Origin: a virus
Virus record (IMG/VR): IMGVR_UViG_3300028602_000019
Location: 1-52,984 of that record
Length of the DNA stretch: 52,984 bases
Reading direction: 5' to 3' (one strand)
How positions within the stretch are numbered: the stretch's first letter is position 1; the number at the start of each line of letters is the position of its first letter. A program made the translations under genes and the position numbers. Positions 1-52,984 of the stretch are shown here, in pieces. The notes beneath the pieces were generated by a model. It had not been told where the DNA came from, did no database searches, and saw nothing but the letters and a program-made list of their open reading frames with translations.

Positions 1-127
1 TCCTCTGAAGTCGGAAGCATATCTTAAGTACAGTATAGATAAAGGAAAGCGTAGGATATGCTATGTGGAATATGTGAAGATAGAGAGAGTGTAGATTAGA
101 TATGATGAGGATAGTAGGGTGTGTAGA
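1..127. repeat. Left inverted terminal repeat (ITR)
   Basis: 1-127 is the exact reverse complement of 52858-52984, checked base by base. The first mismatch is 128 vs 52857. Confidence 0.95.
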
Positions 128-129
128 GC

Positions 130-357
130 GTGGAGGAGAGAGGGAAGGGAGATATATGTACATACGAGACTGCGGATAAGGAGGGGTATAGGGGAGGGGA
201 ATACATATCGTTGGATATAGCTAGTATGATTGTAGTGGGTTGGGAGATGGATAATCTTATAGATGATTGTATGAAGAGAGAGAAGAGAACAGAACAGAAG
301 ATATTGAATAGTATAGCGAAGATGAGTGTATTGAAGAGTACGTATAGAGTTGATTGA
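130..357 (+). CDS. Terminal-family protein, short member
   Basis: GTG-start ORF beginning 3 nt after the ITR. Its C-terminal half shares the pattern (S/D)(I/S)A..(I/L)(V/I)..W...(I)D with the three other terminal genes. The mRNA is almost cytosine-free. Confidence 0.4.
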   Translation: MEERGKGDICTYETADKEGYRGGEYISLDIASMIVVGWEMDNLIDDCMKREKRTEQKILNSIAKMSVLKSTYRVD

Positions 358-358
358 T

Positions 359-697
359 ATGAAGACAGGATTCTACTATCACAGTGATGAGAAGGGAGAA
401 CGCATATTGTTCATCTTCGACGAGGGAAACCCGTGGGAAGCATGGTATTCCTCTACTACCAACGAATTGTCAAGCGTGATGATGTGGCCTTCAGGGATAG
501 GGATATGTCAATTTGAAAGTGCAATCCCCATCTCGGAGCAGAGCGCACATGCTCTGTTGCAGTCGTGGCATAAGAATATGATAGATAAGATAGATATGGA
601 GTATGAAATGTCTAAGAAAAGATTGGAAGAGAAATGGGGTTGGAGTGAAGTGGTATTCAATAAGGGAAAGAGTTTTCAGGGTATACATCTGAGATGA
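359..697 (+). CDS. Terminal-family protein
   Basis: The ORF track gives 350..697 with a TTG start. The ATG at 359 gives MKTGFYYHSDEKGE, mirroring MKKGWYYSEKGE of the right-end gene. It sits 1 nt after the upstream stop. Confidence 0.55.
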   Translation: MKTGFYYHSDEKGERILFIFDEGNPWEAWYSSTTNELSSVMMWPSGIGICQFESAIPISEQSAHALLQSWHKNMIDKIDMEYEMSKKRLEEKWGWSEVVFNKGKSFQGIHLR

Positions 698-796
698 TTA
701 TACTTATGTCTTCCTGCTTCTAATCTATTCTTGATTACTGTATATTCATCTATGAGGATATTAGAGGATTGTTGATAGGCACGTGTTTGTATGAGA

Positions 797-1729
797 TTAA
801 GTAAATCCTGCAATAGTACAATCTAAACGATTGATATACTTATGAATAAGATGCTTGGAATCACAATGTATACTGAATCCTATATATGATTGAAGCGATT
901 GCATAGAATGAGAAGTTATAGGAACATGATGATGAATATTATATATAATAAAATTGATAGATTTAATAAGAGAATGCTTTATTCTTTTTCTAAGTCTTGT
1001 ATAATCATGCCTGAATACAAATCCTAAAAAATCTATTCCTCTAGATTCTACAGGAAATATCTGATAATTTTTCTTGAGTTTCAATTTGAGATTATTAGTA
1101 ATGTATATATTTATGAAGTTCAAATATCTATGAAGTTGCAATTTATTTGAATATAATATAACAATATCATCCATATATCTATAATAATATTTTATACCAA
1201 GATTCTCTTTACAATAATGGTCAAAATAAGATAAATAGAAATTACTGAAATATTGACTTGCATAATTACCTATTGGAATACCTGTTGAAGGAGCAGTGTA
1301 TATTATGATGTGTATAAGATTTAATGTCTGTTTACATTTTATCTTCTTACATATTAATGAGTACAATATATCTCTATCTACATTTTCGAAATAATGATGC
1401 ACATCCAATTTAAGGCAATACTTAGTTCCGATTGGGTCTTGCTTGAGTGTTTGCTTTACAGATTTGGCAGCCTTATGTAATCCTTTATCTGGAATCGCTG
1501 CATATGTAGTTTCTATAAATGTAGATTTCAATATTGGCCCAACAACTTGTAAAAGGCAATGCTGAATTATTCTATCTGGAAAAGTACGAGTGTAGTTCAG
1601 TGTGCGATATTTACCGCTTTCATAAATCTGCCTGGTATTATATTTGGAGGGTACATAAGATTCTTCCGATAATATCTGTTCTATTGCATCAATATATGGT
1701 GCAGGATTGGATAAAATAAGAACAGACAA
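797..1729 (-). CDS. DGR-type reverse transcriptase
   Basis: Carries the YMDD catalytic box (YRYMDDIVIL) and the DGR-typical IGNYASQYFSNFYL motif. The open frame continues upstream to 1837 without a canonical start (see findings). Confidence 0.85.
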   Translation of the reverse strand: MSVLILSNPAPYIDAIEQILSEESYVPSKYNTRQIYESGKYRTLNYTRTFPDRIIQHCLLQVVGPILKSTFIETTYAAIPDKGLHKAAKSVKQTLKQDPIGTKYCLKLDVHHYFENVDRDILYSLICKKIKCKQTLNLIHIIIYTAPSTGIPIGNYASQYFSNFYLSYFDHYCKENLGIKYYYRYMDDIVILYSNKLQLHRYLNFINIYITNNLKLKLKKNYQIFPVESRGIDFLGFVFRHDYTRLRKRIKHSLIKSINFIIYNIHHHVPITSHSMQSLQSYIGFSIHCDSKHLIHKYINRLDCTIAGFT

Positions 1730-1964
1730 ATAATCCTTATGTCCTTTACAGGCATTATGTATTGCTGATATAATGTTATCTCTGGATTTTATTGTATCAT
1801 ATAAATTTCCTTTTCTTCTTATGCTTATCCCTTCTATCTATCTATTATTTCGTTTTCCCCTAGAGTACCAACGAAAGTGGGGTTTAATTTACTAGATGTT
1901 TTGTCAAGAGGCATGGTTATGTGGTCTTGTTGTCCATGTGGACTGTAAGTATTTTGTAGATATT

Positions 1965-2100
1965 CGAGCACCAATGTTAGTGTTAGTATTAGTAGCAGAA
2001 TTGCTCACACGCAAATAGAAGAACCCCGCAAAAGTACCGCCGTTCCAATAACCTCCAAAATAAGGGAAATCAGAAGCACCGACAAAGCCATTGTTGCTGT
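1965..2100 (-). repeat. DGR template repeat (TR)
   Basis: Aligns to 2163-2298 at a constant offset of 198, with 15 mismatches. Ten fall where the TR coding strand has A. The TR lies between the target gene and the RT. Confidence 0.85.
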
Positions 2101-2121
2101 GCCACATCACCGTTAAAAGAC

Positions 2122-2136
2122 GCAAAGTACCTTTGC
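2122..2136 (-). promoter_or_regulatory. Short hairpin just 3' of the VR-bearing gene
   Basis: GCAAAG-TAC-CTTTGC is a perfect 6-bp stem with a 3-nt loop, 5 nt after the stop of ORF 2141..3307. Confidence 0.4.
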
Positions 2137-2140
2137 TTTA

Positions 2141-3307
2141 TTACTCACCCCCATAAGATAGCCGAGCACCAATCGCACTGCTAGTATTAGTAGCAGAATT
2201 GCTCACACGCAAATAGAAGAACCCCGCAAAAGCACCGCCGCTCCAATAACCCCCAAAATAAGGGAAACCAGAAGCAACGACAACGCCATAGTCGCAATAG
2301 TATTTTGTTTCATTTCCGCTTGCTGTAGAGGTAGGCAGGAATCCTGATTGTTCTCCTCCTAATGAAGCAGAGAAATATCCATCTACACCAGCAGATAACC
2401 CCGTATCTATTGTGGCATATCCTGTGCCTGTCGTGTTGGCAATATCTCCTACTTGTATGTTATAATTAGCATCTGTTTTCAATCCGCCAATCAACTCGAA
2501 AATGTTTCCCCACATGTCTTCTTGCCACAAGAACGAGACCCTCGATGTGCTGGACGATGTGTTTCCGTACATACCATACTCATTTACCAAAGTGTTATTA
2601 GCACCTGTGTACTGTTTTACGCTTCCTCCAACATACCCGTTGCCTAAATATGCTTGAGAATCGGTATTTTTGAATAATAATACATATAACATCTGAATAA
2701 ATGTTAAATTGTTGTACAGAGTTATATCATATCCACTTCCTGCACCTGATTGAGCGTATGTAATGAAATCAGTTAAACTACCGTAAACAGTAGGGCTTAC
2801 TCCTGTCCTCGAAGTCAATACGTTTGAGGCATTATATGTTTTATAGCATCCACTTTCGAAGTAATTCCTAACCACCCCATTCCTTGAGAAGTGCCAATCG
2901 GAATATCCTTCTCCTTTGACATTTGAAAATTTGATACTAACGACTGTTCCTGCTTTACTCATTTTCGTATATATTTTTTCAAAATGGGTGAACTTGTTAG
3001 CTGTTGTCGATACAGTATTTCCATCTATGTCTTTAGTCAAGTCTGTTTTCATTAAACGAGTAACAGTTGAACCAACACGCATTACAGGATATATCAAATC
3101 CCATAATGGACATCCGACCCAATCACCAGCAGTAAATGTGCCTATATTGGACATTGGTGAATAGCCTGCACAATCGTCTGTATATGTACATCTTGCATAT
3201 GGGTCTGCAACAGATTCATCTATCTCTACCCCCGCTATCCAATTGGTTGGAAAGGGGTGTGGCCCATGTGATTTAGACATCATCAATCTTCTGAACATCG
3301 AACTCAT
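2141..3307 (-). CDS. DGR target protein: tail-fibre/receptor-binding protein with C-type-lectin/FGE-like C-terminus
   Basis: Contains the VR at its C-terminus. The motif WQEDMWGNIFELIGG resembles the GNVWEW signature of DGR variable proteins. Its ATGA start overlaps the stop of the tail-fibre gene. Confidence 0.75.
   Translation of the reverse strand: MSSMFRRLMMSKSHGPHPFPTNWIAGVEIDESVADPYARCTYTDDCAGYSPMSNIGTFTAGDWVGCPLWDLIYPVMRVGSTVTRLMKTDLTKDIDGNTVSTTANKFTHFEKIYTKMSKAGTVVSIKFSNVKGEGYSDWHFSRNGVVRNYFESGCYKTYNASNVLTSRTGVSPTVYGSLTDFITYAQSGAGSGYDITLYNNLTFIQMLYVLLFKNTDSQAYLGNGYVGGSVKQYTGANNTLVNEYGMYGNTSSSTSRVSFLWQEDMWGNIFELIGGLKTDANYNIQVGDIANTTGTGYATIDTGLSAGVDGYFSASLGGEQSGFLPTSTASGNETKYYCDYGVVVASGFPYFGGYWSGGAFAGFFYLRVSNSATNTSSAIGARLSYGGE
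2163..2298 (-). repeat. DGR variable repeat (VR) in the 3' end of the target gene
   Basis: Partner of the TR. It encodes the last ~45 residues (YCDYGVVVASGFPYFGGYWSGGAFAGFFYLRVSNSATNTSSAIGAR) of ORF 2141..3307. Confidence 0.85.
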
Positions 3308-7368: not shown

Positions 7369-7788
7369 TTATGTTTTTTCAGGCAGATTATATGTAGGGT
7401 ATGAAACGGTTTGTGGGTATCCTTTCTGATTGACTGTATCAGATACTTGAAGATTAAAGTTATCTATATATTGACAACATAATTCTGAATACTCTAAATC
7501 TACATTGTTACGAACGTTGCGAGCATATTTGAGATAGTCATCATCTGTTGCTGAGTGAAGTTTTACTCTTTCCTGTAAACGCTCTTCAACTGTCCATATT
7601 TTCACTTCGTACTGCTCTTTTATCAATTGTCCATCTTTTACTTTCCAAGCATAATGTTGCCTTATTGCAAATGTATTATTATATGTGGTATCATCTACTT
7701 CTATATTGCCCACAGATTCACTTTGCTCAAAATGCAATGGATACCTATCACAAACCCACCCATCTATATTATAATATATCTGTTTCAT
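7369..7788 (-). CDS. Hypothetical tail-module protein
   Basis: The ORF track gives a GTG start at 7806. The ATG at 7788 has an AGAGGT ribosome-binding site 6 nt upstream. Lies between a baseplate-type gene and the fibre gene. Confidence 0.5.
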   Translation of the reverse strand: MKQIYYNIDGWVCDRYPLHFEQSESVGNIEVDDTTYNNTFAIRQHYAWKVKDGQLIKEQYEVKIWTVEERLQERVKLHSATDDDYLKYARNVRNNVDLEYSELCCQYIDNFNLQVSDTVNQKGYPQTVSYPTYNLPEKT

Positions 7789-7798
7789 ATATGACCTC

Positions 7799-10678
7799 TT
7801 ACGCACCTACTACTTGCCCTAACGTCATCCATATTATCTTATTACATCCATTAGGAATTCTTACTACAAAAGACGTAGTTGATTTACTAACTATTTTTAA
7901 ATCTGTTCCTACTGTATTGTTTGTATATGGAATTGCCATCGCATAATAATATGTATTTATATATGTATGACCTATGGTGATTGTTTCATCGGTATTATCG
8001 TCAACATCTGATTCAGAATATGTAATTTCACAAGGATATATTGGGCCACCACTCATCTTTTCAGTGATTCCAATTCCATAATTAGTTACTCCGTTTTGAA
8101 CAATACTGCATTTATTAGCAGTTCCTGTTCTGAATCCCATATATATTCCATCATTATTCACTGTAGTTCCGCCTGTGAAAAATGTATCCGCATGTAAAAC
8201 AGAATGAACAGCAGTTGAACCATAAATATTATTTGAAAACGCAGAACCTGTATCAGAACCATAACCTATTGATATCTTTCCATATCCTGCACTTCCACTT
8301 TGACTTGCTTGTAATACTAATTTATTTGTATTGCTAGTAGTATTATATGCTCTTAAGTATATGCCATCCTCAGATACAGAATATAGATTTCCGATAATAT
8401 TGTTGCTACTATCTGTGAAATTGATTGCAGAATTGGAAGAGTATGTATAATATGATTTTACAGTCAATCCAGACCCATTGAGTTTGATATATGGTGTGCC
8501 TCCGTTGTATCCAGTGTTGTATGTACCAGCAGTATCTATGGAAGCTGTTAATGTAGCTCCGTTATATACTTGCATTCCAGTCGAATTGAGTTTGATTGCT
8601 CCTCCACCTGCAATGATATTACCATCAGAACCAACCGAACATTGCAATACTGAACTGGTATTATATGTCTTAAGACCATAAGAATTCAATAATACTGCAC
8701 CAGACCCTGCCGTGATGGCACCATTAGAGCTGATAGAGCACTGAAGCACCGAACTGGTATTGTAAGTCCTCATACCATTATCATCGAGCACCACGGCTCC
8801 TCCACCTGCCATGAATTTACCATTAGAGTTGAAGTAAGCCTGTATCACTCCGTTGTCATAACCTGCTAATCTGTATAAGCTGACATCGGAGTTCTTCTCC
8901 ATTATCAACCCAGTGAATCCTGCTCTATCGTCTACCAATTTAGATAATGTCTGATTTCCTACAACAATCTTGGAGACGGGCTTATCCCACGTAATAGTAT
9001 CCTCAGTTCCTTCTTCAGTGGCTGTTTGAGCCGAGGAAGTCAATCCTGAAATCTGACCCTGTGCATCCATGAATTGAGGGTTTCCAAAAGTCAAAGTTGT
9101 TACACAACTAGGATATGACAACATAATGCAAGACAGAGGAACGTTATACATCGTCAATCCATTCTGCACATCTTCTATCACACCAAGCATAGTATATGGT
9201 GCGAATCTGCTTACTCTTTGATTGCCATCATCGACATAATCAAATCTAGTCCACACTCCGCTTAAATACTTATAGAAAGTTATCATGAATCCAGCAGATA
9301 CTTTTCCTATATCTCCTTCTTGAACAGAAGCATCAGTAGGCAATCCTGCCACCGATGATGCAGTCCATTGATATTCGCTGACTTCACTTTCGCTTCCTAT
9401 CTCAGACATCGTGAACTGAATCGCATCCATCGGCTTATAATTGGTTACAATCCTATTCAAAGCTATCTTTCTGGTTTGAAGATTCCTATCGTAGTTATCT
9501 GTAGTTGCAGGGTCTGTCGGATTGCTTTCAGGATAAGGAAGATAAATTGAATCTCCTTCTTCATTCATGGAAACATCACTGATGGCGATAGTGGTCGCAT
9601 AGTTCTCAGCCGTTACCATCTGACTCGTTTGAACATAAGTAGAGCCTTGGTCTTCATTATCTATGATTGTGTAGATGTCTAAAGATTTGATAGTGGTAGG
9701 GTCTCCTTCTGTTAATTGTGTATATGCCTCCCCATTATCTAAGTGCATCTTATAGAGATAAGAATACTGAGATGCTGAATTGGAAGGATTATAATCTGCA
9801 AAATATGCATTATCATAGAAAAAGGGGATACGATTAGATATATATCCTATGGCTTTTATAGCATCCCAACACTTGACTATGTCTACACGACATTTGATGA
9901 TGTCGTTCTCATCCAACAATACTGATGCATTCTTTATTGCTTCAATCTCTTCAGAAGTATATGTATCTAAGATGGGAATGGTTGCTGTTGTAGGCACTTG
10001 TGTGTAATCATACATGTATCCTGTGTCGCAAACACAAGTAGGAATTGTATATCCAGCACCATTGACTGCAACGAATCTGAATAAGTTAGTACCATTTCCC
10101 ATAATATAATTTGTAACCACAGAATAAACTGTATCCTTGAGAGATACTGTAACGCTGAAGTCCACATAATATGATGGCAATGTAACTTCATTGAAATAAT
10201 ATCTGATTAGATATATGCCTTCATCTGTAACTGAATCCGTTAATATAGTTAAAGGATTAGATTTAGCTACATCATAGCTCATATAAAAATATTTCACAGT
10301 TGATACAATCTCGAAATTTATAGAGCAGATTGAACTCAGATTGATAGAACTTTTAAGTTTATATGCCTTATTATAGCATAAGAATGTGATAGTATCCTCT
10401 TCAGAATCATGTCTCTCTATATACATATCATATGATTCACCATATGCTTCGACATGGATTGTAGTTTTCCCATTTATGATTGCAGGATGTGTTAATCCAA
10501 ATTGACTCCAATACAAATCATCTGAATTGAAATATGCTTTCTTAACTAATACTTCAGCCATTGCGAAAGGCTGATTCCTTCCATATGTATAATTTATACG
10601 AGAAGTAATGGTAGATATGTCGTATGCTATTCCTTCTGCATCATATATGATTACTATGGGTTCTGAAACTGTACTCAT
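7799..10678 (-). CDS. Large tail tip/baseplate protein (959 aa)
   Basis: Size and position two genes downstream of the tape measure; contains 3 x 31-aa repeats. No motif-level identification. Confidence 0.5.
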   Translation of the reverse strand: MSTVSEPIVIIYDAEGIAYDISTITSRINYTYGRNQPFAMAEVLVKKAYFNSDDLYWSQFGLTHPAIINGKTTIHVEAYGESYDMYIERHDSEEDTITFLCYNKAYKLKSSINLSSICSINFEIVSTVKYFYMSYDVAKSNPLTILTDSVTDEGIYLIRYYFNEVTLPSYYVDFSVTVSLKDTVYSVVTNYIMGNGTNLFRFVAVNGAGYTIPTCVCDTGYMYDYTQVPTTATIPILDTYTSEEIEAIKNASVLLDENDIIKCRVDIVKCWDAIKAIGYISNRIPFFYDNAYFADYNPSNSASQYSYLYKMHLDNGEAYTQLTEGDPTTIKSLDIYTIIDNEDQGSTYVQTSQMVTAENYATTIAISDVSMNEEGDSIYLPYPESNPTDPATTDNYDRNLQTRKIALNRIVTNYKPMDAIQFTMSEIGSESEVSEYQWTASSVAGLPTDASVQEGDIGKVSAGFMITFYKYLSGVWTRFDYVDDGNQRVSRFAPYTMLGVIEDVQNGLTMYNVPLSCIMLSYPSCVTTLTFGNPQFMDAQGQISGLTSSAQTATEEGTEDTITWDKPVSKIVVGNQTLSKLVDDRAGFTGLIMEKNSDVSLYRLAGYDNGVIQAYFNSNGKFMAGGGAVVLDDNGMRTYNTSSVLQCSISSNGAITAGSGAVLLNSYGLKTYNTSSVLQCSVGSDGNIIAGGGAIKLNSTGMQVYNGATLTASIDTAGTYNTGYNGGTPYIKLNGSGLTVKSYYTYSSNSAINFTDSSNNIIGNLYSVSEDGIYLRAYNTTSNTNKLVLQASQSGSAGYGKISIGYGSDTGSAFSNNIYGSTAVHSVLHADTFFTGGTTVNNDGIYMGFRTGTANKCSIVQNGVTNYGIGITEKMSGGPIYPCEITYSESDVDDNTDETITIGHTYINTYYYAMAIPYTNNTVGTDLKIVSKSTTSFVVRIPNGCNKIIWMTLGQVVGA
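8552..8830 (-). repeat. Three tandem 93-nt coding repeats
   Basis: Protein repeats NG...AG.GAV.L...G..TYNTSSVLQCS occur three times, read directly from the translation. Confidence 0.75.
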
Positions 10679-16407: not shown

Positions 16408-18402
16408 TCACTGAAAAACATAAGAATAAGAAGAGTCCAAATCTAAATCTTCCACTAGCTTCTCTATAACTTCTTTGTTATATACTTTACCTTTACATCT
16501 GATGATTATATTATTACAACCCCTGAATTGAGACAGCTTAGATTCAGGCACTATATATTCCCCCTCTCCTGCCTCTGAAATCAATCCTACGATTCCACCT
16601 ACAGATGGGGATATTTTTCCTCCGTTCGCGAATGCTTCATATTGGAAACCCTCCAATCCTTTGAAAACTTGGTCATATATCACCCAGTATGCAGCTGCTC
16701 CTGCTATGGCACCTGTAGCGGCTCCTACAGCGATACAGACAGGTATAGAGGCACCGAAGGTGAACCACGAACTCATAGCTCCTGCAATGGCTCCTGCAAT
16801 GGCTCCTGCAGCTGTACCTATCCCTACGAGTAATGCAAACGTCCATAGTTCTATATCGCTTATAAATATACCTACGGCTTGTAAACATAATTTACATAAG
16901 CTTAGTAAAAAGTTCACACAATTCGTGACAGTTTCAGAATTTTTACTCATCCATGTAAAAAACGCTGTTCCATAATCTATAAGATTCACTATAAGATTCT
17001 CTTTTATCATAGTCGTAAATGCAGATATGCCTTTAGACAACATCTGGAATATCAAATCTTTATTATTTAGTATAACCTCTATGAATCCTAACACAAATTC
17101 TAAGAAAGGCTTAACTAAAGGCACGAAAACTGGTAGGAAATCTTTCAAGAATTTAGTCGCCAATTCTTCTAATTCATCTACTATATTTGACATCGCATCA
17201 TTAAAAGCTTCATCCGATTTCAATTGAGAACGATAATTAATACCTAACTGCACTCCTGTAGTAATCATGATGGAAATCATTGATGTTATTGCATTCATTA
17301 TAGGTGTTCCGAATACAATGAAGAAAGTCACAAAGAACAAACTGCAAACCAATTCTATATAAGACAGTATCCCCTCTAATACTTTAGATGTTTCAGCTAT
17401 GGATTTCATGATTTTCATTATAGAAGTCAATAATGAAATGAACAATGTAAATCCTAACTGGAACATAGAAGAAATAAGAGATGTGATTCCACTAAGAGAA
17501 TTAGCTATAAGCTCCATAGTTGTTCCTAATGATTTCATAAATGTGTTGGATGCATCTTCCGCCTTCTCCGCTCCCCCCTTCTTTTTGTATGCTTTAGATA
17601 TCTTATCTAATCCTGAACTGGTTGCGTCCGTTACTGTTGCTCCTATGTTGATTGCATAAGATGTCATGGTAATATATCCTGACATTACTTCTATTATAGC
17701 ATGTAACGGTCCTGCTTTCAAATCACCGAATGAAGCTCCTAACTGAGATGCTCCTTGATTCAATAAGCCTGAACTATCATTCATTCCTTTTACAATAGTT
17801 TCCAAACTTGCATTTATAGCATTACCTACTTTGAGATACTGACCTAAGAATATAAGCATATAAGGAGGTTTGACTAATATATCTCCTGTGTCAGATAGAT
17901 TCTTCATCGAAGTATCTTTGACTCCACCCACATTCATTACAAATAATGCTTGGAAATTAGATAAGTCTACCCTTTTCTTATAAGCTTCTCCTTCTGTCCA
18001 AGTATGTTGTGTTTTTATATAATTTTTACTGGTAATATACTGTGCCGATTTGAACTTCTTATCCTTATTGAATATGGATTGCGCTGTTTGAATATGTGCT
18101 ATCAGAGATGCGAGTCTCCCTGCATTGAGGTCATCTCCGTGCTCGTGTAGATTTGTTGCTATTTTAGAAGATGTGGAAATGAGCTTAGAGGATACTGCAT
18201 TGACACGGCTTTTACCTGTGCTCTTCAAATCATCTATTTCAGACTTATAATCAGATTCTAATTGTACAATCTTTGATATTTGTGTGTGTTGCAACCTACT
18301 AGAATATTTTATACTGTTTGTAATTTTAGATAGGTCTGATTCTATCGCATTAGTACTCCAATCTATATAATCGAAATCTATGTTGGAATTGTATTTGCTC
18401 AT
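16408..18402 (-). CDS. Tape-measure-like protein, paralog B
   Basis: The ORF track start is 18438. The ATG at 18402 has an AGGTGA ribosome-binding site and avoids overlap with the upstream gene. Shares the modules S.L.SI.K..K..A.TS, FLP...L.P.L.F and GG..P..GG.....GE.EYI.PES with ORFs 12477..14411 and 18407..21061. Confidence 0.65.
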   Translation of the reverse strand: MSKYNSNIDFDYIDWSTNAIESDLSKITNSIKYSSRLQHTQISKIVQLESDYKSEIDDLKSTGKSRVNAVSSKLISTSSKIATNLHEHGDDLNAGRLASLIAHIQTAQSIFNKDKKFKSAQYITSKNYIKTQHTWTEGEAYKKRVDLSNFQALFVMNVGGVKDTSMKNLSDTGDILVKPPYMLIFLGQYLKVGNAINASLETIVKGMNDSSGLLNQGASQLGASFGDLKAGPLHAIIEVMSGYITMTSYAINIGATVTDATSSGLDKISKAYKKKGGAEKAEDASNTFMKSLGTTMELIANSLSGITSLISSMFQLGFTLFISLLTSIMKIMKSIAETSKVLEGILSYIELVCSLFFVTFFIVFGTPIMNAITSMISIMITTGVQLGINYRSQLKSDEAFNDAMSNIVDELEELATKFLKDFLPVFVPLVKPFLEFVLGFIEVILNNKDLIFQMLSKGISAFTTMIKENLIVNLIDYGTAFFTWMSKNSETVTNCVNFLLSLCKLCLQAVGIFISDIELWTFALLVGIGTAAGAIAGAIAGAMSSWFTFGASIPVCIAVGAATGAIAGAAAYWVIYDQVFKGLEGFQYEAFANGGKISPSVGGIVGLISEAGEGEYIVPESKLSQFRGCNNIIIRCKGKVYNKEVIEKLVEDLDLDSSYSYVFQ

Positions 18403-18406
18403 AAAA

Positions 18407-21061
18407 TCACCTGTAAGATGCCCTGTTGTATTCATCACTTATCGCAGCTTGAATCTCTGTAGAGATATTATCTACACCATAGATGTCTCCCTGAAATTCC
18501 AATATAATTGTGTTGTGTCCTCTTACCATTCCCATTCTAGATTCAGGAATTATATATTCTGTCTCTTTCTCTCCGACTATTATCATTTTACCACCAGGAG
18601 TTGAGGGTATATATCCTCCTTTTTCAAATGCAAACAGAGATTCGTAGAAAACCAATCCAATCAATGCGCCCAATCCTGCTCCTGGTATTCCAGATTTAGC
18701 AACTAATTCAGCAATTGTTTCAGCTAAGAATCTCTTAGACATAAATTGTCCTATTACTTGAAGTGTACCTCCTGCACCAATGAATGCTAAAGCAATTGAA
18801 ATTAGTGAAACTATCGCAGCTCCTAATAGTACACAAAATGCCATAAGATGTTTTGTCACCCATGACATGAATCCCAAAGCCCAATCTGCAACGGTAAAAG
18901 TATATTTAAGAACTTTTAAAATCGCATCGTTATTATTCTTCAAAAACTTCATGGCTTGCACTCCGAAGGATAAGAACACTGCTAGGATTCCATTTTTCAA
19001 CATAGCATTGGCTGCATCTATGCCGTATTTTACCATATCACATATTGTTTGTATATTGTCTGCGAATACACTCATCATGAATAACGCAAAACTTAATAAA
19101 TTCGGGATTAGTTTAATCATATCTGGCAAAAAATCCTTTATAAAACTTATAGCCAATTCTTTTATCTGTTCATCTGAATCACTTAAAAACTTGGCTATAC
19201 TGGTAAGTATGGTGGTCATGGCTTCTGAAAACGTAGAAAACAATTGCCCGTTGAGAATCATTTGAGATAAGAATGAAAAGAATGTTGTCAGTAAGGAATC
19301 ACCTATCATAGTAAAGAATGGCAAGAATATCATGGTAATTATCAATGTGACTATGTTTGAAATCTGTTCCATGAGCTTGGATGTGGATGCTAAGGTTTTA
19401 AGCATTTTCAGAATTGTACTTAAAATTCCTGTGAACATGGAAACTCCTGATTGAATAACAGATGAAATCACAGACATACCTAATGCGAAAGCCGTGAATA
19501 TAGCTGATATTAAATTGATAATCATCGTCACAACCTGTGTTGCAGAAGATGCTTTACCTGTTGCACCTGTTTTCCCCTTCATCTTCCCTACGATAGAGAA
19601 TATCTCACTACACAATTCGATAGAAGAAGATACTACCAATAAAGCTGCGGATATACCTTTAGTCATACCTGACATAAAAGACACTAAGGATGATGTAACT
19701 GAACTAACTGGATTTGCCAATCCTGACATCATATCCTGTGCTCCATCTGAAAACAAAGAAACCGCTTTGCTCATCTCTGCATTCGTGTTCATCAATGCTT
19801 GACAGAATTGTGCTGTTGTTTTAACAAATTCAGATACGACTGGTGACTGCAATGCAGTGATGATTTCGCCAGGGGGTGCAGGTCTGCCATCCTTCATCTT
19901 TTCAACGGATTTGTCTGGATTGACAGCCGTTGCTTTGGGTGATTTGGTTGCTTCAGGATATTTTCCTTCCACTTTGCCTACTTCTGGAACGTAGGGGTTT
20001 CCTCTAACGTGATACTTCTCCCCAGCACGTATGGATATGATTGCGGATTTAACGGTGTCCACTACCAATTCATTGATAGCTTTACGATAATCTTCATTGG
20101 AATCAGCATCATCTATCATGCTTTTAGCTATTCTTCCATATGCTCTTTTGTCATCGGAATCTATCGCTTTCTGAATAGAAATAGAATTAGAATCTGCACT
20201 ACTTGCAGGTTTGCGTTTCTTGGTTGCATCCTGAATAGAAGATTCCACACAACTTTCTATGAATTGTTCTTCCGCTTTGGCTTCTTTCAATCTCTGATTA
20301 TTTATGGCATTTTTGAATTGATTGTCTATCCTCTTGAAATCGTTAGGTGTACCCTTCATACTGTCTATGTTCTTCAAAATCTTATTGATAGAACTTTTAC
20401 TCATTCCTAAAGCAGAAGCTCTTGCGGATACTTCTTCTTTCTTGGTTCTTTTCTCATAGTATAATTGGGTATAATGCTGTGTGTATTTATTCCCTACAGA
20501 TTTTCCTACACCTCTGGTTTTATATTTACCTTCACCGAATACAGTAGATGCTAATTGTGTTAATTCAACTAATGTTTTCCTTACTTGAGCCTGTCCGCTT
20601 TTAGATAGCTTTCCGCCATTAAGTGCTAATTGAAGAGACTTGGTAGCATCGTTTATTTGATTCTTCAGACGTTTCAAATCCGATTTGGGGTCTAACGATA
20701 TGCGCTTGAAATCTAGTTCGAACATCTTGCTTTTCAAGTCATACCCGTTACCGTACTCTTCCATGAAGTTTATCAGATGCTGATGAGACTTTATATACGT
20801 TGGAATCTCTTCTTCAAAAACATCTAATGTATCTTGCAGTTTGGAAGTTAGTGCTGATTCTCTTTCAGATTTAGAATCACCTATGAAATTATCTTCTAAC
20901 TCTGGTGTCGTTGGGGTTTTTCTAGCAGATGCTTGCTTTATCTTCTTATTATTTTCTCTTTCTGTTTTCTTTACTCTTTTGAGCGATTCTTCTAAGGATG
21001 TATCATATTCTCTCTTGGTATTGGATTCTCCCATCCTTCCGTAGTTCGCTCTTCTAGGCAT
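18407..21061 (-). CDS. Tape-measure-like protein, paralog A (884 aa, basic N-terminus)
   Basis: Has the same C-terminal module as the other two paralogs. The N-terminal ~400 aa are Lys/Arg/Glu-rich and helical. Confidence 0.65.
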   Translation of the reverse strand: MPRRANYGRMGESNTKREYDTSLEESLKRVKKTERENNKKIKQASARKTPTTPELEDNFIGDSKSERESALTSKLQDTLDVFEEEIPTYIKSHQHLINFMEEYGNGYDLKSKMFELDFKRISLDPKSDLKRLKNQINDATKSLQLALNGGKLSKSGQAQVRKTLVELTQLASTVFGEGKYKTRGVGKSVGNKYTQHYTQLYYEKRTKKEEVSARASALGMSKSSINKILKNIDSMKGTPNDFKRIDNQFKNAINNQRLKEAKAEEQFIESCVESSIQDATKKRKPASSADSNSISIQKAIDSDDKRAYGRIAKSMIDDADSNEDYRKAINELVVDTVKSAIISIRAGEKYHVRGNPYVPEVGKVEGKYPEATKSPKATAVNPDKSVEKMKDGRPAPPGEIITALQSPVVSEFVKTTAQFCQALMNTNAEMSKAVSLFSDGAQDMMSGLANPVSSVTSSLVSFMSGMTKGISAALLVVSSSIELCSEIFSIVGKMKGKTGATGKASSATQVVTMIINLISAIFTAFALGMSVISSVIQSGVSMFTGILSTILKMLKTLASTSKLMEQISNIVTLIITMIFLPFFTMIGDSLLTTFFSFLSQMILNGQLFSTFSEAMTTILTSIAKFLSDSDEQIKELAISFIKDFLPDMIKLIPNLLSFALFMMSVFADNIQTICDMVKYGIDAANAMLKNGILAVFLSFGVQAMKFLKNNNDAILKVLKYTFTVADWALGFMSWVTKHLMAFCVLLGAAIVSLISIALAFIGAGGTLQVIGQFMSKRFLAETIAELVAKSGIPGAGLGALIGLVFYESLFAFEKGGYIPSTPGGKMIIVGEKETEYIIPESRMGMVRGHNTIILEFQGDIYGVDNISTEIQAAISDEYNRASYR

Positions 21062-24091: not shown

Positions 24092-25381
24092 TTACTTCAA
24101 GTGGACTATCTTTCCGAGACCTTTGAACATTCCCTTGTACTGAACCTCACCAAACTGGTTCATATCACAAAGTCTTGTGTATCTCTGGGTAATCAACGGG
24201 TTGTCGCTCATGAGAACATTAGGTGCTCTGAGAACTCCCATGAAGAGGTTCTCTGAATCTGCAAAGTACATTCTTGAGATACCATCGTCTGCGTGTCCGC
24301 CTGTGGTCGGTCCATATCCTTTTCCGACTTCTCTGTCGGGAATGATAATCATGTTCTGGTATTTTGCAACCTGGAAACCAGTCTCGCGACCTTCAAGAGT
24401 CTTGACACCGTTCTGGTCGAACTGAGCCGAAACCTGACCCTGATATCTCTGTTGAGGCTGGAGAATCATCTGCAATTTGGTCATTGTATCTGGACCAGTG
24501 ATGATTACCTTACCCTTCGAGGAATAGTTATCCCAGTATGGGTTAAGCGTATTGATTGTGGTATCAATCATAGACAGTGTAAGCTGTCTGAGCGTAGCAT
24601 CACCAGTCGTAGTTCCTGCCGTGTAGTTCGCATCGACATAACAGTTTATGTTATTGTCTGCAACTGCTCCAGAAGCTGCTGGATTCCTATATTTAGCCAG
24701 AGGCTGTGCCGAATCGGTGGATGGGAGTTGTGTGTACATCTTCCACGGAACGTTGTATCCTGCTGGAACGTACTGTCCTTCAGTGTAGTTGGAGATAATC
24801 CTATCAAGTGATTCTGCTCCCACATATTCTGTAGCTCCGTAAGGGTTGGCTCCAGTAGGTGTCGGGTCTTCTACACGTCTGAGCAAGTCGTTGTTGATTG
24901 TCCAGAGGAATGTATCGGCTTCGTTCTTGACCTGTGTTTCCCAGAGCATGACATCGTCAATCTGCTTGGAACCAATCTCTACCATACCGAGATTCATTGC
25001 GAATCTGTGTGCGAAAAGCTTATAAGGCTGTTCGAACTGGAGATAGTTTCCGACAACAGGGTTTGGTACACCTGCTCCTCTCGCGAGACCTGATGTCTGT
25101 GATTTGGTCATAGACATGCTCTCTTGGAATCTGTATGCTGTTCTGTACGGCTGTTGACCGATTGCAGTAAGTGCATATGCTTTGTTATATGCGAGGTTCT
25201 GAACGTAAGGTCCATAAACCGCATTCATTGCACCATCTGTATTAATTCCGATAGTTCCTTCTCCTTTCAATCTCTCAACGGACCTCATATCGTTTCCCCA
25301 TGAGAAATCAAATACTTCTTCCATTGAGGAATAAGTAGGGAAAACCCCGTCGGATGTAAATCCTGTCATAATCGAATTCAT
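24092..25381 (-). CDS. Major capsid protein (429 aa, presumed HK97 fold)
   Basis: Canonical order portal, protease/scaffold, capsid. ATGA start/stop coupling, locally higher GC and a terminator hairpin downstream. The fold is not verifiable by eye. Confidence 0.6.
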   Translation of the reverse strand: MNSIMTGFTSDGVFPTYSSMEEVFDFSWGNDMRSVERLKGEGTIGINTDGAMNAVYGPYVQNLAYNKAYALTAIGQQPYRTAYRFQESMSMTKSQTSGLARGAGVPNPVVGNYLQFEQPYKLFAHRFAMNLGMVEIGSKQIDDVMLWETQVKNEADTFLWTINNDLLRRVEDPTPTGANPYGATEYVGAESLDRIISNYTEGQYVPAGYNVPWKMYTQLPSTDSAQPLAKYRNPAASGAVADNNINCYVDANYTAGTTTGDATLRQLTLSMIDTTINTLNPYWDNYSSKGKVIITGPDTMTKLQMILQPQQRYQGQVSAQFDQNGVKTLEGRETGFQVAKYQNMIIIPDREVGKGYGPTTGGHADDGISRMYFADSENLFMGVLRAPNVLMSDNPLITQRYTRLCDMNQFGEVQYKGMFKGLGKIVHLK

Positions 25382-32399: not shown

Positions 32400-32832
32400 T
32401 TGTACCTCCAAACTTACCACCCTTTGAATCTTCAGGCAGAATCCTATCGAATCTGATTGTATCGCTATCATATGTATCATTGCAAAGATAGCGAATCCTA
32501 TAATACCCGAACGCTTTTCCGTATATATGTGTTTTGGCATCACAGATTTTTATCACATAATATGAATTGGATTGTGAATTGTGCTGTACTCTTACATCTA
32601 AGTCGCATCTGTTTATCTTGTTGCGTAATGTAATCCACGCACGGGGTGACATATTCCCAAATCCAGCACGCTCTTCCAATGCTACTCTTTTACACTCCGA
32701 TACCGACTCGCCTGTTGAATACACTATCTTCGTGGATAAGCTGTCAGATATCAGTGCATAATATCTTTTCCCCCAATCTAACTTTTCACATGGAGGCAAG
32801 GATACTTCTATACACTTGTTCGATTCATTCAT
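32386..32832 (-). CDS. Hypothetical protein (148 aa)
   Basis: Co-directional ORF between the helicase gene and radA. No motif recognised. Confidence 0.45.
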   Translation of the reverse strand: MNESNKCIEVSLPPCEKLDWGKRYYALISDSLSTKIVYSTGESVSECKRVALEERAGFGNMSPRAWITLRNKINRCDLDVRVQHNSQSNSYYVIKICDAKTHIYGKAFGYYRIRYLCNDTYDSDTIRFDRILPEDSKGGKFGGTNARR

Positions 32833-37944: not shown

Positions 37945-38275
37945 AACCTGCCAATGTGGTGGTCCTCTTATCGAAGTAGAGGGTCTTACAGGACTATTCT
38001 GCGATGATTGTGGTGCTCATTACGAGGATGAGAGCGATGAGCAACCTGTAAATATATTCTCTGAAGATAAACTGAAGATGGCAAGGGGAGTTCCTGTAAA
38101 TAAATTCTGTATCGGCAGTGAAACCAAGGGCAGAATCGAAATTTCCATTCCCATCTATGCTTCTAAAATCATCCAGAAAAAGATAATTGATGAACAGATA
38201 GAGATGTTGCAATATCTGAAAGACAGTATTGAAGAGAAAGGATTGGATATTATGACTAAGAGGGTGGTGAAATGA
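37922..38275 (+). CDS. Zinc-ribbon protein (117 aa)
   Basis: CQCGG...(15)...CDDCG ribbon at the N-terminus. Confidence 0.5.
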   Translation: MVNGMKSKTCQCGGPLIEVEGLTGLFCDDCGAHYEDESDEQPVNIFSEDKLKMARGVPVNKFCIGSETKGRIEISIPIYASKIIQKKIIDEQIEMLQYLKDSIEEKGLDIMTKRVVK

Positions 38276-52177: not shown

Positions 52178-52489
52178 TTATTTTTTCATTAAATCACAGC
52201 ATTTTTCAAACATACTATTAGTATATTCGCAATCATTCTCGAAATCTGATATATTTATTTGATATTCTCCATCTATTCTGTTTCTTCTATCCTGACACCA
52301 TTTGTCAATCAATAGTTTAGCACTTTCTGATGACATTTCTATCCCTCCTTTATCTTTTATATACATATACGGTGTTGCACATCCATTACAGAATATAACT
52401 TGACCTGTTATTCCTTCTCTAACTGTATGTGTATATATGATATATTCAGGATTGTCTTCGTTTTTGTTGTATCTGAATCCTTCATTCAT
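52178..52489 (-). CDS. Terminal-family protein
   Basis: MNEGFRYNKNEDNPEY...SESAKLLIDKWCQDRRNRIDGEY aligns with ORFs 359..697 and 52549..52818. Confidence 0.5.
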   Translation of the reverse strand: MNEGFRYNKNEDNPEYIIYTHTVREGITGQVIFCNGCATPYMYIKDKGGIEMSSESAKLLIDKWCQDRRNRIDGEYQINISDFENDCEYTNSMFEKCCDLMKK

Positions 52490-52548
52490 ATTTGTGTATC
52501 TCCTTCAACCTATATGACCCCTTCTATACTCATTTAATTTCTATCCAA

Positions 52549-52818
52549 TCACATCCCTCTCTCCACTCTCTCCAACACCTCTCTCATCTCCCTTTCCACC
52601 TCTCTCCCCATCTCCCTATACGTCTCTCTATACCACATCTTAACAATCTCCACTGCACTCTCCCTTCTAATCTTCACTCCCTCATACTCCTCTCTAATCC
52701 CGTCTCCGTATATCAACACCGCACCCTCTCTATTCTCCCATACCTCTACTCTTCCCTCTCTGCAATGCACTATACGCAACACTTCTCCTTTCTCCGAGTA
52801 ATACCATCCTTTCTTCAT
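52549..52818 (-). CDS. Terminal-family protein encoded by an almost cytosine-free mRNA
   Basis: The ORF track start is 52836. The internal ATG at 52818 gives MKKGWYYSEKGE, mirroring the left-end gene. The protein is dominated by E, R, G, V, Y, M, K and W. Confidence 0.5.
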   Translation of the reverse strand: MKKGWYYSEKGEVLRIVHCREGRVEVWENREGAVLIYGDGIREEYEGVKIRRESAVEIVKMWYRETYREMGREVEREMREVLERVERGM

Positions 52819-52857
52819 CTCATACCCTCTATACATATATCTTCTTCATACTATATA

Positions 52858-52984
52858 TCTACACACCCTACTATCCTCATCATATCTAATCTACACTCTC
52901 TCTATCTTCACATATTCCACATAGCATATCCTACGCTTTCCTTTATCTATACTGTACTTAAGATATGCTTCCGACTTCAGAGGA
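52858..52984. repeat. Right inverted terminal repeat (ITR)
   Basis: Exact reverse complement of 1-127. Confidence 0.95.

What the first reader, a model, noticed from the sequence alone, without database searches (positions are those of the whole stretch)
61..360. Extreme cytosine depletion of the 5'-to-3' inward strand at both genome ends
Seen: by hand count, positions 61-360 of the plus strand contain about 105 G but only 14 C. The mirror region 52501-52860 contains only about 11 G on the plus strand, with C the dominant base. At both termini, then, the strand whose 5' end is at the terminus is nearly C-free for 300-450 nt. The skew covers the inner part of the ITR and continues into non-identical subterminal sequence, so it is maintained independently of repeat identity. 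It stops sharply near 360 and 52490. Inference, two non-exclusive readings. (a) A mutational footprint: C-to-U deamination of a strand that is repeatedly single-stranded, as expected for the displaced 5' strand when replication or resection starts at the ends. (b) A functional signal: inward transcription yields purine-rich RNA on a C-rich template, which favours stable R-loops that could prime replication in a genome lacking a primase gene.
Basis: partly seen in the sequence, partly recalled or inferred. Interest (0 to 1): 0.65.

Follow-up and report, generated by a model that had tools for sequence, protein, structure and literature searches.

The report
C-poor leaders flanking an inverted repeat
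Two 300–430-base stretches almost without cytosine on one strand are real, but they sit at assembly breakpoints inside a larger, probably archaeal, virus genome and cover the start of two inward-facing gene cassettes, so they are not a sign of replication from genome ends.

Summary
The base counts are exact, and the two zones are the only extreme GC-skew regions in the window. They also exceed anything in 326 kb of other viral DNA.

The "genome ends" framing fails. The perfect ITR is exactly 127 nt, the largest k of the JGI metaSPAdes pipeline. MEGAHIT k141 contigs of the same virus share exactly 141 nt and run 14 nt past both window ends. A 29-kb contig ends in the same 127-mer. In a relative, the repeat element and the C-free gene are internal to a contig.

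Each zone runs from about position 62 of the repeat to the start codon of an L112/R103-family gene. It covers a non-coding leader and a small inward ORF; one of these ORFs (R89) is a paralog of that family.

Deamination is not supported. T is depleted, G is doubled, synonymous NNC/NNT is unchanged, and G is preferred over A at synonymous sites.

A P4/D5-type primase-helicase candidate is present, which contradicts the "no primase" premise.

The zones are the most RNA:DNA-hybrid-favouring windows when transcribed inward, but G-clusters are not enriched.

Best reading: an extreme, selected, sense-strand purine loading with C exclusion in the leader of a duplicated expression cassette. Its purpose is unresolved.

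The parts
1..127 (+). Left copy of the inverted repeat. Only its inner 127 nt are in the window; it continues at least 14 nt outward. Positions 10-127 form a non-coding module conserved in relatives.
   Evidence: The perfect match to the right end is exactly 127 nt. L001 and L003 share 141 nt. L022 ends in this 127-mer. Indels against relatives are not multiples of 3.
52858..52984 (-). Right copy of the inverted repeat.
62..358 (+). Left C-poor, G-rich zone: 297 nt with 13 C and 105 G. It runs from the last C in the repeat (position 61) to the base before the L112 start codon.
   Evidence: C positions; composition; ends at the L112 ATG at 359.
52490..52923 (-). Right C-poor, G-rich zone: 434 nt with 13 C and 170 G on the minus strand. 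It runs from repeat position 62 to the base before the R103 start codon.
130..357 (+). L75: a 75-codon ORF with a GTG start, called as a gene in the ENA assembly. It fills the left zone. It has no homologs, so its coding status is uncertain.
   Evidence: Gene call in L001. Stop-free run versus shuffles P=0.003. Sense GC skew 0.74. No similarity to R89.
52549..52818 (-). R89: an 89-aa gene (an alternative start at 52836 gives 95 aa). It is a paralog of L112 and R103, encoded almost without C.
   Evidence: Alignments A1 and A3. HMM E=1.7e-28. Stop-free run P=0.001. Sense skew 0.84 and GC3 skew 0.85. AF2 pLDDT 69. The first differences I read against L018 (GCG/GCA, GAA/GAG) are synonymous. The zone is 3.2% diverged against 9.2% for the flank.
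359..697 (+). L112: a 112-aa family gene of ordinary composition, immediately downstream of the left zone.
52178..52489 (-). R103: a 103-aa family gene of ordinary composition, immediately downstream of the right zone.
52829..52859 (-). Conserved pre-ATG element GATATATAGTATGAAGAAGATATATGTATAG with two TATA-like boxes. It is an unverified candidate archaeal promoter or leader element, and it precedes family genes in relatives too.
   Evidence: Sequence. The same element stands upstream of P0003 and of R95 copies in L017 and L018. No sigma-70-like promoter falls in the zones.

Best explanation
The two C-poor stretches are not terminal features.

Each is the first 300-430 nt downstream of one copy of a duplicated, inward-facing expression cassette. 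The two copies form an inverted repeat of at least 141 nt at the borders of a 53-kb segment. That segment lies inside a larger genome (at least about 82 kb) of a tailed virus that is probably archaeal.

Each zone begins about 62 nt into the repeat module and ends exactly at the start codon of an L112/R103-family gene. It comprises a non-coding leader and one small ORF: R89, a family paralog, on the right, and L75 on the left.

The composition is an extreme local case of a sense-strand purine and G loading that this virus shows genome-wide, combined with near-exclusion of C. It is maintained by selection at the nucleotide and transcript level, with amino-acid usage bent to fit. It is not maintained by cytosine deamination.

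Computed physical consequences: the inward RNA cannot form G-C pairs and is among the least structured in the genome. The outward RNA is essentially structure-free. The inward RNA:DNA hybrid is the most stable relative to the DNA duplex anywhere in the window.

Inferred, not shown: a promoter in the repeat fires inward, and the C-less purine-rich leader is what selection acts on. My split of the purpose is:
- an open, purine-loaded 5' leader for robust early expression: about 0.35
- a hybrid-prone (R-loop) element used in replication or recombination: about 0.2
- C-exclusion as protection against a C-specific attack: about 0.07
- the rest unknown or a by-product.
For: Not genome ends:
- The ITR is 127 nt, the top JGI metaSPAdes k.
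- k141 contigs share exactly 141 nt and extend 14 nt beyond both ends.
- The 29,286-bp contig Ga0265294_10001734 ends in the same 127-mer at 100% identity. It carries ordinary unique genes: about 26 small early-type genes, then dUTPase, RtcB, RNA ligase and NAMPT.
- In relative L018 the order on one strand is L112-homolog, repeat module, C-free R95, R103-homolog, all inside a contig.

Linked to transcription units:
- Both zones are filled by inward ORFs whose stop-free runs beat shuffles (P=0.001-0.003).
- The zones end at the ATGs at 359 and at 496 from the right end.
- Sense-strand GC skew is positive in 54 of 59 genes (mean 0.18), and averages 0.30 in the early genes of L022. The two zone ORFs are outliers at 0.74 and 0.84.
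- Shorter islands elsewhere are always on the sense strand.

Nucleotide-level pressure:
- The non-coding parts (166 nt) hold 4 C (P=8e-11).
- Synonymous G over A, P=2e-7.
- The two zones share no sequence similarity yet have the same composition.
- The zone is more conserved than the flanking gene: 3.2% against 9.2%, P=2.5e-4.

Physical consequences.

Archaeal-type replication proteins:
- RadA scores 322 bits, above the equivalog cut-off.
- The PCNA-like clamp has E=1.8e-25.
- RadA homologs in the phage database occur only in haloarchaeal viruses.
- PDB matches are to RadA/Rad51, not RecA.
Against: - No transcription data exist. The inward promoter and start site are inferred only from gene orientation and TATA-like boxes.
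- At T/C-ending synonymous codons C is barely avoided in R89 (4:10). Much of the C loss in coding parts therefore comes through amino-acid choice (Pro, His, Gln, Thr and Ala are 4.5-11% against 21% elsewhere). This leaves room for a partial protein-composition explanation.
- The G-over-A preference argues against 'minimal RNA structure' as the selected trait.
- The lack of G-clustering argues against R-loop nucleation.
- L75 has no homologs and may not be a gene.
- Only very close relatives carry the zones, so long-term conservation of the composition while the sequence diverges is shown only weakly, by the diverged cassette copy at L017 280-430.
- The genome topology remains unresolved. It could be a repeat pair in a circular or concatemeric genome, or very long terminal inverted repeats.
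Confidence: 0.55

Rival explanations
1. R-loop element. Inward transcription through the G-rich, C-free non-template strand forms a persistent RNA:DNA hybrid that primes DNA synthesis, or that stimulates RadA-mediated recombination or inversion at the repeat.
For: - The zones are the top hybrid-favouring windows on each strand (z -3.3 and -4.6).
- Extreme positive GC skew lies on the presumed non-template strand.
- G is preferred over A at synonymous sites.
- A G4-cluster GGGGTATAGGGGAGGGG sits at 183-199.
- The zones adjoin an approximately 900-bp intergenic region with tandem 19-mers, ATGTACA palindromes and a microsatellite, which looks like an origin or a control region.
- The virus encodes RadA, a PD-(D/E)XK nuclease and a helicase.
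Against: - G-runs are not enriched over composition, and runs of four or more are depleted in the right zone (P=0.03).
- There is no canonical G4. R-loop rule sets are met only in part: the left zone has an initiation cluster but the following sequence has under 40% G, and the right zone has the G content but no cluster.
- A primase-helicase candidate exists.
- A conventional origin-like AT-rich region lies beside it at about 34.6-34.75 kb.
- The zones end at start codons, which an R-loop function does not predict.
- The hybrid-stability result is a re-expression of base composition, computed with parameters recalled from memory.
Confidence: 0.2
2. By-product of protein composition. The zones encode Glu/Arg/Gly/Val/Lys-rich proteins whose codons (GAG, AGA, GGN, GTN, AAG) are naturally G/A-rich and C-free. 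No nucleotide-level function exists.
For: - Residues needing C in their codons are 4.5% (R89) and 10.7% (L75) against 21% elsewhere, and NNC/NNT is not shifted in R89.
- GAGAG is over-represented, as expected for Glu-Arg repeats.
- The highest skew in the outside baseline (0.63) lies in a charged, tropomyosin-like ORF of the methanogen virus psiM2.
Against: - The non-coding parts of the zones are equally C-free: 4 C in 166 nt, P=8e-11.
- G is preferred over A at synonymous sites (P=2e-7), while the paralog R103 shows the opposite, 2:23.
- Two unrelated ORFs and the shared non-coding module all show the bias, which starts inside the non-coding repeat at position 62.
Confidence: 0.12
3. Mutational footprint. 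Cytosine deamination acts on a strand that is often single-stranded, either the displaced strand at replication starts (first reader's reading (a)) or the non-template strand of a heavily transcribed unit.
For: The depletion is specific to one strand and tied to position. It affects unrelated sequences on both sides.
Against: - T is depleted rather than enriched, and G is doubled.
- Third-position T is only 0.14-0.30.
- Synonymous NNC/NNT is essentially at background.
- The borders are sharp and fall at start codons.
- GC content of the zones (40-44%) is above the genome mean (37%), the opposite of what C-to-T decay would give.
- The zones are not at demonstrated DNA ends.
Confidence: 0.04
4. 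The 29-kb outside contig is itself a very long terminal inverted repeat (outside contig, window, reverse-complemented outside contig; about 111 kb, linear). The zones would then lie at the junctions between the repeat and the unique region of a genuinely linear genome, 29 kb from the ends.
For: - In the JGI assembly the outside contig runs unbranched through the repeat to its inner edge, and both window ends attach to that same contig end.
- The JGI and ENA contigs both stop at nearly the same far point, within about 35 nt.
Against: - The virus encodes large and small terminase subunits and a recombination module, which is typical of concatemer packaging.
- Path extension and overlap trimming by the assembler can produce the same picture for a short repeat pair.
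- No coverage data were available.
- Even if true, the zones are not at the ends.
Confidence: 0.15

Closest known systems
Purine loading of the mRNA-synonymous strand (Szybalski's transcription-direction rule), as used for gene finding in AT-rich poxviruses (PMC552303) and as described for AT-rich archaeal genomes (PMC2447400)
   Same: Purines, and G over C, are in excess on the sense strand, in the direction of transcription, genome-wide (54 of 59 genes). The zones follow the same polarity.
   Different: The magnitude and locality differ. Purines are 70-77% and GC skew is 0.74-0.84 over 300-430 nt, against 0.36 or less for every other gene. The bias includes non-coding leader sequence, and the borders fall sharply at start codons.
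GC-skewed R-loop-forming regions downstream of promoters, such as CpG-island promoters, immunoglobulin switch regions, ColE1 RNA II and phage T4 origin R-loops (established knowledge; reviews PMC4083084 and PMC12599619)
   Same: The non-template strand downstream of a presumed promoter is G-rich and C-poor. The calculated RNA:DNA hybrid is more stable than the DNA duplex.
   Different: G-clusters are not enriched. There is no experimental evidence for hybrids or for a promoter. The zones are protein-coding and end at start codons. A primase-helicase candidate and a conventional origin-like region exist elsewhere.
Inverted terminal repeats of linear protein-primed or hairpin-ended viral genomes (phi29, PRD1, adenovirus; the archaeal Chaacviridae with pPolB, PMC9894754)
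   Same: An identical sequence stands in inverted orientation at both ends of the assembled contig.
   Different: The repeat length tracks the assembler k (127, 141). Sequence continues beyond both ends. No pPolB was found in the proteins I scanned, which cover most large ORFs but not all. Large and small terminase subunits are present.
Inverted-repeat pairs that break metagenomic assemblies and allow flip-flop inversion of the segment between them, such as plastid IRs and invertible phage segments (established knowledge)
   Same: Two identical inverted copies bound a unique segment. Both ends of the segment join the same outside sequence in the assembly graph. Relatives show alternative junction combinations (L017, L018, L023).
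   Different: Inversion isomers within one sample were not demonstrated. The segment is 53 kb and carries the whole structural module. No recombinase specific to the repeat was identified.

Membership tests
Terminal inverted repeats of a linear viral genome | The repeat lies at the physical ends of the DNA | tested here: not met
   Three other assemblies continue past the window ends: L001 and L003 by 14 nt, and L022 by about 10.8 kb held of a 29-kb contig. Relative L018 has the element inside a contig.
Terminal inverted repeats of a linear viral genome | The repeat length is a property of the genome, not of the assembler | tested here: not met
   127 nt in the window equals the largest k of the JGI metaSPAdes workflow. 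The k141 MEGAHIT contigs share exactly 141 nt.
Terminal inverted repeats of a linear viral genome | Matching replication machinery (protein-primed PolB with terminal protein, or a telomere resolvase) | tested here: not met
   None was found among the 39 window ORFs I scanned (most of those of 200 aa or more), nor among the Pfam calls listed for the genes of L025, about 11 kb of the outside segment. What was found: TerL, TerS, RadA, a PCNA-like clamp and a D5/P4-type primase-helicase. About 7 kb of the outside segment was not seen.
Deamination-driven strand asymmetry | C is replaced by T on the exposed strand (T excess, lower GC) | tested here: not met
   T is 21-25% against 32% genome-wide. 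G is 35-41% against 18%. Zone GC is 40-44% against 37%.
Deamination-driven strand asymmetry | Synonymous NNC codons shift to NNT | tested here: not met
   R89 has 4:10 and L75 has 2:18; pooled 6:28 against a background of 1622:3227 (P=0.07). Counts are small.
R-loop-forming sequence | Strong G>C skew on the non-template strand, with a hybrid more stable than the duplex | tested here: met
   Skew is 0.77-0.86. The difference in stability (hybrid minus duplex) has z = -3.3 and -4.6, the top window on each strand (parameters recalled from the literature).
R-loop-forming sequence | G-clusters that nucleate the hybrid, followed by an extension zone of at least 40% G | tested here: inconclusive
   The left zone has a cluster at 183-199, but the following 100 nt have at most 32 G. 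The right zone has 41-47% G but no cluster. G-runs are not enriched, and runs of four or more are depleted on the right.
R-loop-forming sequence | Transcription through the element and RNase-H-sensitive hybrids in vivo | not testable with these tools
   No transcriptome or DRIP data were available.
Purine loading (transcription-direction rule) | Purine and G excess on the sense strand, co-oriented with genes across the genome | tested here: met
   54 of 59 genes have positive sense-strand GC skew, and sense purine content is 0.47-0.64. The zone ORFs have 0.71 and 0.77 purine and skew of 0.74 and 0.84. All shorter islands lie on the sense strand.
Diversity-generating retroelement (considered because the RT abuts the left zone) | The zone is a template or variable repeat, or shows adenine-specific differences from another copy | tested here: not met
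   The DGR is complete without it: TR 1958-2097 and VR 2156-2295, with 11 of 15 mismatches at TR adenines. The zones have no other copy in the window.
Rho-utilisation (rut) site on the outward transcript | C-rich, G-poor, unstructured RNA in a host that has Rho | tested here: inconclusive
   The composition and lack of structure fit: MFE is -6 to -8 kcal/mol per 300 nt, C is 40-47% and G is 1-4%. However, the host is probably archaeal, and Archaea lack Rho (established knowledge).

The most novel reading that the evidence does not exclude
C-exclusion itself is the selected trait. The first 300-430 nt of two inward, probably early, transcription units can be made almost without CTP. They also offer almost no cytosine to a C-specific attack, such as ddhCTP-type chain terminators from viperin-like defence, C-specific RNases of CRISPR type III or toxin systems, or ssDNA cytosine deaminases. 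This would let an archaeal virus express its first genes under such a defence. A family gene (R89) would have been recoded into a 15-amino-acid, C-free alphabet for this purpose.
Probability: 0.07. Interest if true: 0.8.

Novelty: new variant of a known kind. Interest (0 to 1): 0.35.

Why it matters
1. This is a cautionary case. A 'complete linear genome with ITRs' is here an artefact of an internal inverted repeat combined with the assembler's k-mer. Biology inferred from 'ends' (protein priming, end-initiated replication) does not follow.

2. The compositional feature itself is real, and it lies outside the range seen in 326 kb of other viral DNA. A paralog of an ordinary gene is maintained in an almost C-free coding sequence, next to a C-free leader. 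That points to selection on a nucleic-acid property of a specific transcription unit in a poorly known, probably methanogen-infecting, viral lineage.

3. If the purpose is R-loop formation or escape from a C-specific defence, it would be a new regulatory or counter-defence device. If it is only extreme purine loading, it is a curiosity.

Tried and rejected
- Exact search for the first 40 nt and for the conserved repeat core in IMG/VR and GTDB genomes found nothing.
- RT-based relatives turned out to be unrelated phages without such zones.
- TerL-based relatives gave one 8.8-kb contig and no GTDB hit.
- I tried to walk to the far end of the 29-kb outside contig and reached about 22 kb.
- Rfam found no family in the zones or anywhere in the window or the outside segment. 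There was only a sub-threshold RT-17 hit near the DGR of a relative.
- There is no sigma-70-type promoter in the zones and no intrinsic terminator near them.
- The pre-ATG motif is not a genome-wide promoter. It occurs only in the cassette copies, plus one 2-mismatch match in the outside segment.
- The 'Shine-Dalgarno sponge' idea fails: GGAG-type motifs are not enriched beyond composition, and GGAGG is absent from the right zone.
- There is no canonical G-quadruplex motif.
- The Rho/rut terminator idea for the outward transcripts was dropped once archaeal-type RadA and PCNA pointed to a host without Rho.
- DGR involvement was rejected.
- The R89 structure model has no significant PDB match (best E 0.7; a weak PipX-like topology).
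- The exhaustive profile search shows the gene family is an orphan.
Full report
OBSERVATION

Window 61-360 holds A105 G105 T76 C14. Window 52501-52860 holds C146 T126 A77 G11.

Across the window, 300-nt GC skew has mean -0.014 and sd 0.187. Only two regions exceed |0.5|: 1-450 (max +0.77) and 52301-52980 (max -0.86).

No 300-nt stretch there holds fewer than 16 of either G or C, against 9-14 here.

The same sequence recurs in independent assemblies, so it is not a sequencing artefact:
- ENA sample ERZ27250894: 0 and 2 mismatches.
- A JGI and another ENA sample: 89-93% identical overall.

Beyond the 127-nt repeat the left and right zones share no detectable similarity.

THE 'GENOME ENDS' ARE ASSEMBLY BREAKPOINTS

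- The perfect inverted repeat is exactly 127 nt. That is the largest k used by the JGI metaSPAdes workflow.
- Two MEGAHIT k141 contigs from one ENA sample match the window's left end (L001) and right end (L003). Both start 14 nt further out (AGTGTTGCTTGCGG...) and share exactly 141 nt, which is their k.
- A metagenome scan for the repeat core found JGI contig Ga0265294_10001734 (29,286 bp). Its last 127 nt are 100% identical to the window's repeat, and it stops exactly at the repeat's inner edge.
- That outside segment is ordinary unique virus DNA. It has about 26 small early-type genes pointing away from the repeat, followed by dUTPase, a pentapeptide protein, RtcB, an RNA ligase, an isochorismatase-family protein and NAMPT.

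So the repeat is at least 141 nt long and extends outward, and the window is one segment of a larger genome of at least about 82 kb.

I could not reach the far end of the outside contig. Two topologies remain open:
- a repeat pair in a circular or concatemeric genome, which I favour because both terminase subunits and a recombination module are present;
- very long terminal inverted repeats.

In neither case do the zones lie at DNA ends.

Relatives from the same landfill series show the repeat module inside contigs and in other arrangements:
- L018: L112-homolog, spacer, repeat module, C-free R95, R103-homolog, all on one strand.
- L017: outside-like sequence, a diverged C-poor cassette, L112-homolog, spacer, repeat module, R95 truncated to 7 codons, then the RT on the other strand.
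- L023: repeat module, truncated R95, then the RT.

WHAT THE VIRUS IS

It is a tailed virus, with these assignments:

| Coordinates | Assignment |
|---|---|
| 42620-43939 | TerL |
| 43929-44582 | TerS |
| 27909-29645 | portal |
| 24092-25381 | weak capsid match |
| 16408-21061 | weak tape-measure matches |
| 31398-32543 | archaeal-type RadA (322 bits, above the equivalog cut-off) |
| 35517-36242 | PCNA-like clamp (E=1.8e-25) |
| 32872-34485 | P4/D5-type primase-helicase candidate (D5_N, DUF5906; TIGR01613 E=1e-24, 87 bits, below its 109-bit cut-off) |
| 37162-37944 | PD-(D/E)XK nuclease |
| 38906-39991 | SF2 helicase |
| 45136-45783 | ThyX |

RadA homologs in a 50,697-record phage collection occur only in haloarchaeal tailed viruses. 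In the PDB the protein matches RadA/Rad51 (5e-76) far better than RecA (3e-22). The samples are landfill leachate. Genes carry strong GGAGG ribosome-binding sites.

I infer an archaeal host, probably a methanogen, with probability about 0.75. TerL is at most 33% identical to any isolate, so the lineage is new.

An AT-rich stretch with a GC palindrome beside the primase-helicase gene, at about 34.6-34.75 kb, is a conventional origin candidate.

ANATOMY OF THE ZONES

On both sides the last C of the repeat is at position 61. The next C is at 129 on the left and at 187 from the right end.

The left zone ends at 358, and the ATG of L112 is at 359. The right zone ends at 495 from the end, and the ATG of R103 is at 496. 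L112, R103 and R89 form a small orphan family with an MKxG[FW]YY motif and 20-26% identity to R89. Only two further members turned up among 5.8 billion proteins, and an exhaustive profile search added nothing convincing.

The right zone consists of:
- 105 nt of leader,
- R89 (52549-52818),
- a 59-nt spacer.

The left zone consists of:
- 68 nt of leader,
- L75 (130-357), an ORF with no homologs.

Repeat positions 10-127 behave as non-coding, because the indels against relatives are not multiples of three.

Stop-free runs in both zones exceed those of shuffled sequence (P=0.001-0.003). That is notable because all three stop codons are C-free.

R89 is predicted to fold as four strands and two helices (pLDDT 69, pTM 0.59). 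It has no significant structural match. The R95 differences from L018 that I read from the sequences (GCG/GCA, GAA/GAG) are synonymous. The zone is more conserved than the adjacent R103 gene: 3.2% against 9.2% (P=2.5e-4), and 2.4% against 7.2% (P=0.005).

WHAT KIND OF PRESSURE

Sense-strand GC skew is positive in 54 of 59 genes (mean 0.18). It averages 0.30 in the outside early genes. L75 (0.74) and R89 (0.84) are outliers above the next-highest value of 0.36, and the same holds at third codon positions (0.88 and 0.85).

Shorter islands (100-175 nt) of the same kind occur at 7741-7850, 38176-38275, 42616-42730, 47916-48055 and repeatedly in the outside segment. All are on the sense strand. Those I checked sit at gene 3' ends and ribosome-binding sites. 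Unrelated phage loci almost lack such islands. The zones are thus the extreme of a lineage-wide, transcription-oriented habit. This corresponds to the known 'purine loading' of mRNA-synonymous strands (PMC552303, PMC2447400).

Evidence on the nature of the pressure:
- Deamination predicts more T, lower GC and loss of synonymous NNC. Instead T is depleted, G is doubled and zone GC is 40-44% against 37%.
- NNC/NNT is 4:10 in R89 and 6:28 pooled, against 1622:3227 (P=0.07). The strong synonymous signal is G over A, 43:20 against 1075:1962 (P=2e-7).
- Most C loss in the ORFs comes from avoiding Pro, His, Gln, Thr and Ala (4.5-11% against 21%) and from using AGR Arg and TTR Leu codons.
- Protein composition alone does not explain the bias. 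The presumed non-coding parts (166 nt) hold only 4 C (P=8e-11), and the bias begins inside the non-coding repeat.

PHYSICAL CONSEQUENCES AND THE R-LOOP READING

As RNA, the inward strand of the zones folds to -23 to -36 kcal/mol per 300 nt. The outward strand folds to -6 to -8. The genome mean is -60.5, sd 12.3.

I used nearest-neighbour parameters recalled from Sugimoto 1995 and SantaLucia 1998. With these, the inward RNA:DNA hybrid is more favoured over the DNA duplex in the zones than anywhere else on either strand (z -3.3 and -4.6). The outward direction is average. The physical premise of reading (b) therefore holds.

Against a specific R-loop or G4 function:
- There is no canonical G4 motif.
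- An initiation-type G-cluster occurs only at 183-199, and the sequence after it has under 40% G.
- G-runs are not enriched over composition, and runs of four or more are under-represented in the right zone (P=0.03).
- G is dispersed as GAGAG.

No Rfam family, sigma-70 promoter, terminator or SD-motif enrichment was found in the zones.

CONCLUSION

Its framing as a terminal, replication-linked feature is not supported, and the deamination reading is contradicted.

The best-supported description is a C-excluded, purine- and G-loaded leader with a small ORF, downstream of a duplicated inward-facing cassette. The two copies of that cassette form an internal inverted repeat in a probably archaeal tailed virus.

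Which property selection acts on cannot be decided from sequence. The candidates are an open leader, hybrid formation, or C-exclusion as such. I give them about 0.35, 0.2 and 0.07.

Noticed in passing
window 797-3307 (minus strand): A complete diversity-generating retroelement. It has the RT (797-1729; RVT_1, E=5e-15), a template repeat at 1958-2097, and a variable repeat at 2156-2295 at the 3' end of the 388-aa target gene (2141-3307). The repeats are 140 nt long and 11 of 15 differences are at template adenines. The ENA copy of the virus differs from the window only at 2214-2215, inside the variable repeat, which suggests the element is active.
   Followed up: yes
window 31398-32543, 35517-36242, 32872-34485: These genes encode an archaeal-type RadA recombinase, a PCNA-like sliding clamp and a P4/D5-type primase-helicase candidate. 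Among 50,697 phage records, RadA homologs occur only in haloarchaeal tailed viruses. The virus is probably archaeal, and TerL is at most 33% identical to any isolate, so it is a new lineage.
   Followed up: yes
L022 9966-10843 (outside segment, just beyond the window's repeat): An intergenic region of about 900 bp lies between divergent gene sets. It contains several repeats: four to five ATGTACA palindromic motifs, 2.8 tandem copies of the 19-mer GTATAGGATATGAAAATCA, direct repeats of CAACAACTTC.AGGGG..TATTCCGTCAT, about 20 copies of an (ACT)n microsatellite, and GATGTTGTCTTG repeats. It may be a control or origin region.
   Followed up: partly
L017, L018, L023 versus window 1-900 and 52000-52984: Relatives from the same landfill show different junctions at the repeat module. 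Examples are R95 truncated to MK[KR]GWYY-stop and fused next to the RT gene, and an L112-type gene upstream rather than downstream of the module. These look like inversion isomers or recent rearrangements at the repeat.
   Followed up: partly
window 34600-34760: A strongly AT-rich stretch (TTATATATAATATATAATAATAAG...) and a GCGCGTACGCGC palindrome lie in the divergent intergenic region beside the primase-helicase gene. This is a conventional candidate origin of replication.
   Followed up: partly
window 7741-7850, 38176-38275, 42616-42730, 47916-48055; L022 and L025, several sites: Short (100-175 nt) G-rich, C-poor islands lie on the sense strand at the 3' ends of genes. Where I checked, they combine charged C-terminal tails with strong GGAGG ribosome-binding sites. 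They are frequent in this virus and in its one TerL relative (L024), and rare in unrelated phages.
   Followed up: yes
window 697-797 and 52162-52178: Two pairs of convergent genes (L112 with the RT, and R103 with the 115-aa gene) are separated by 99 and 15 nt. No intrinsic terminator was detected between them, so long outward transcripts would run antisense through the C-free zones.
   Followed up: no
L025 4358-10205 (outside segment): A cluster of auxiliary genes: dUTPase/dCTP-deaminase-like, a pentapeptide-repeat protein, RtcB, an RNA ligase, an isochorismatase-family (nicotinamidase-like) protein and an NAMPT N-terminal domain protein. These suggest RNA repair and NAD salvage functions.
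   Followed up: no
window 40392-41774: Two adjacent transglutaminase-like (cysteine-protease fold) proteins lie in the plus-strand module.
   Followed up: no
L022 10746-10937, ending at window 94: A 63-codon ORF runs from the outside segment into the window's repeat and stops at window 92-94. Indels in relatives break its frame, so it is probably not a gene.
   Followed up: partly
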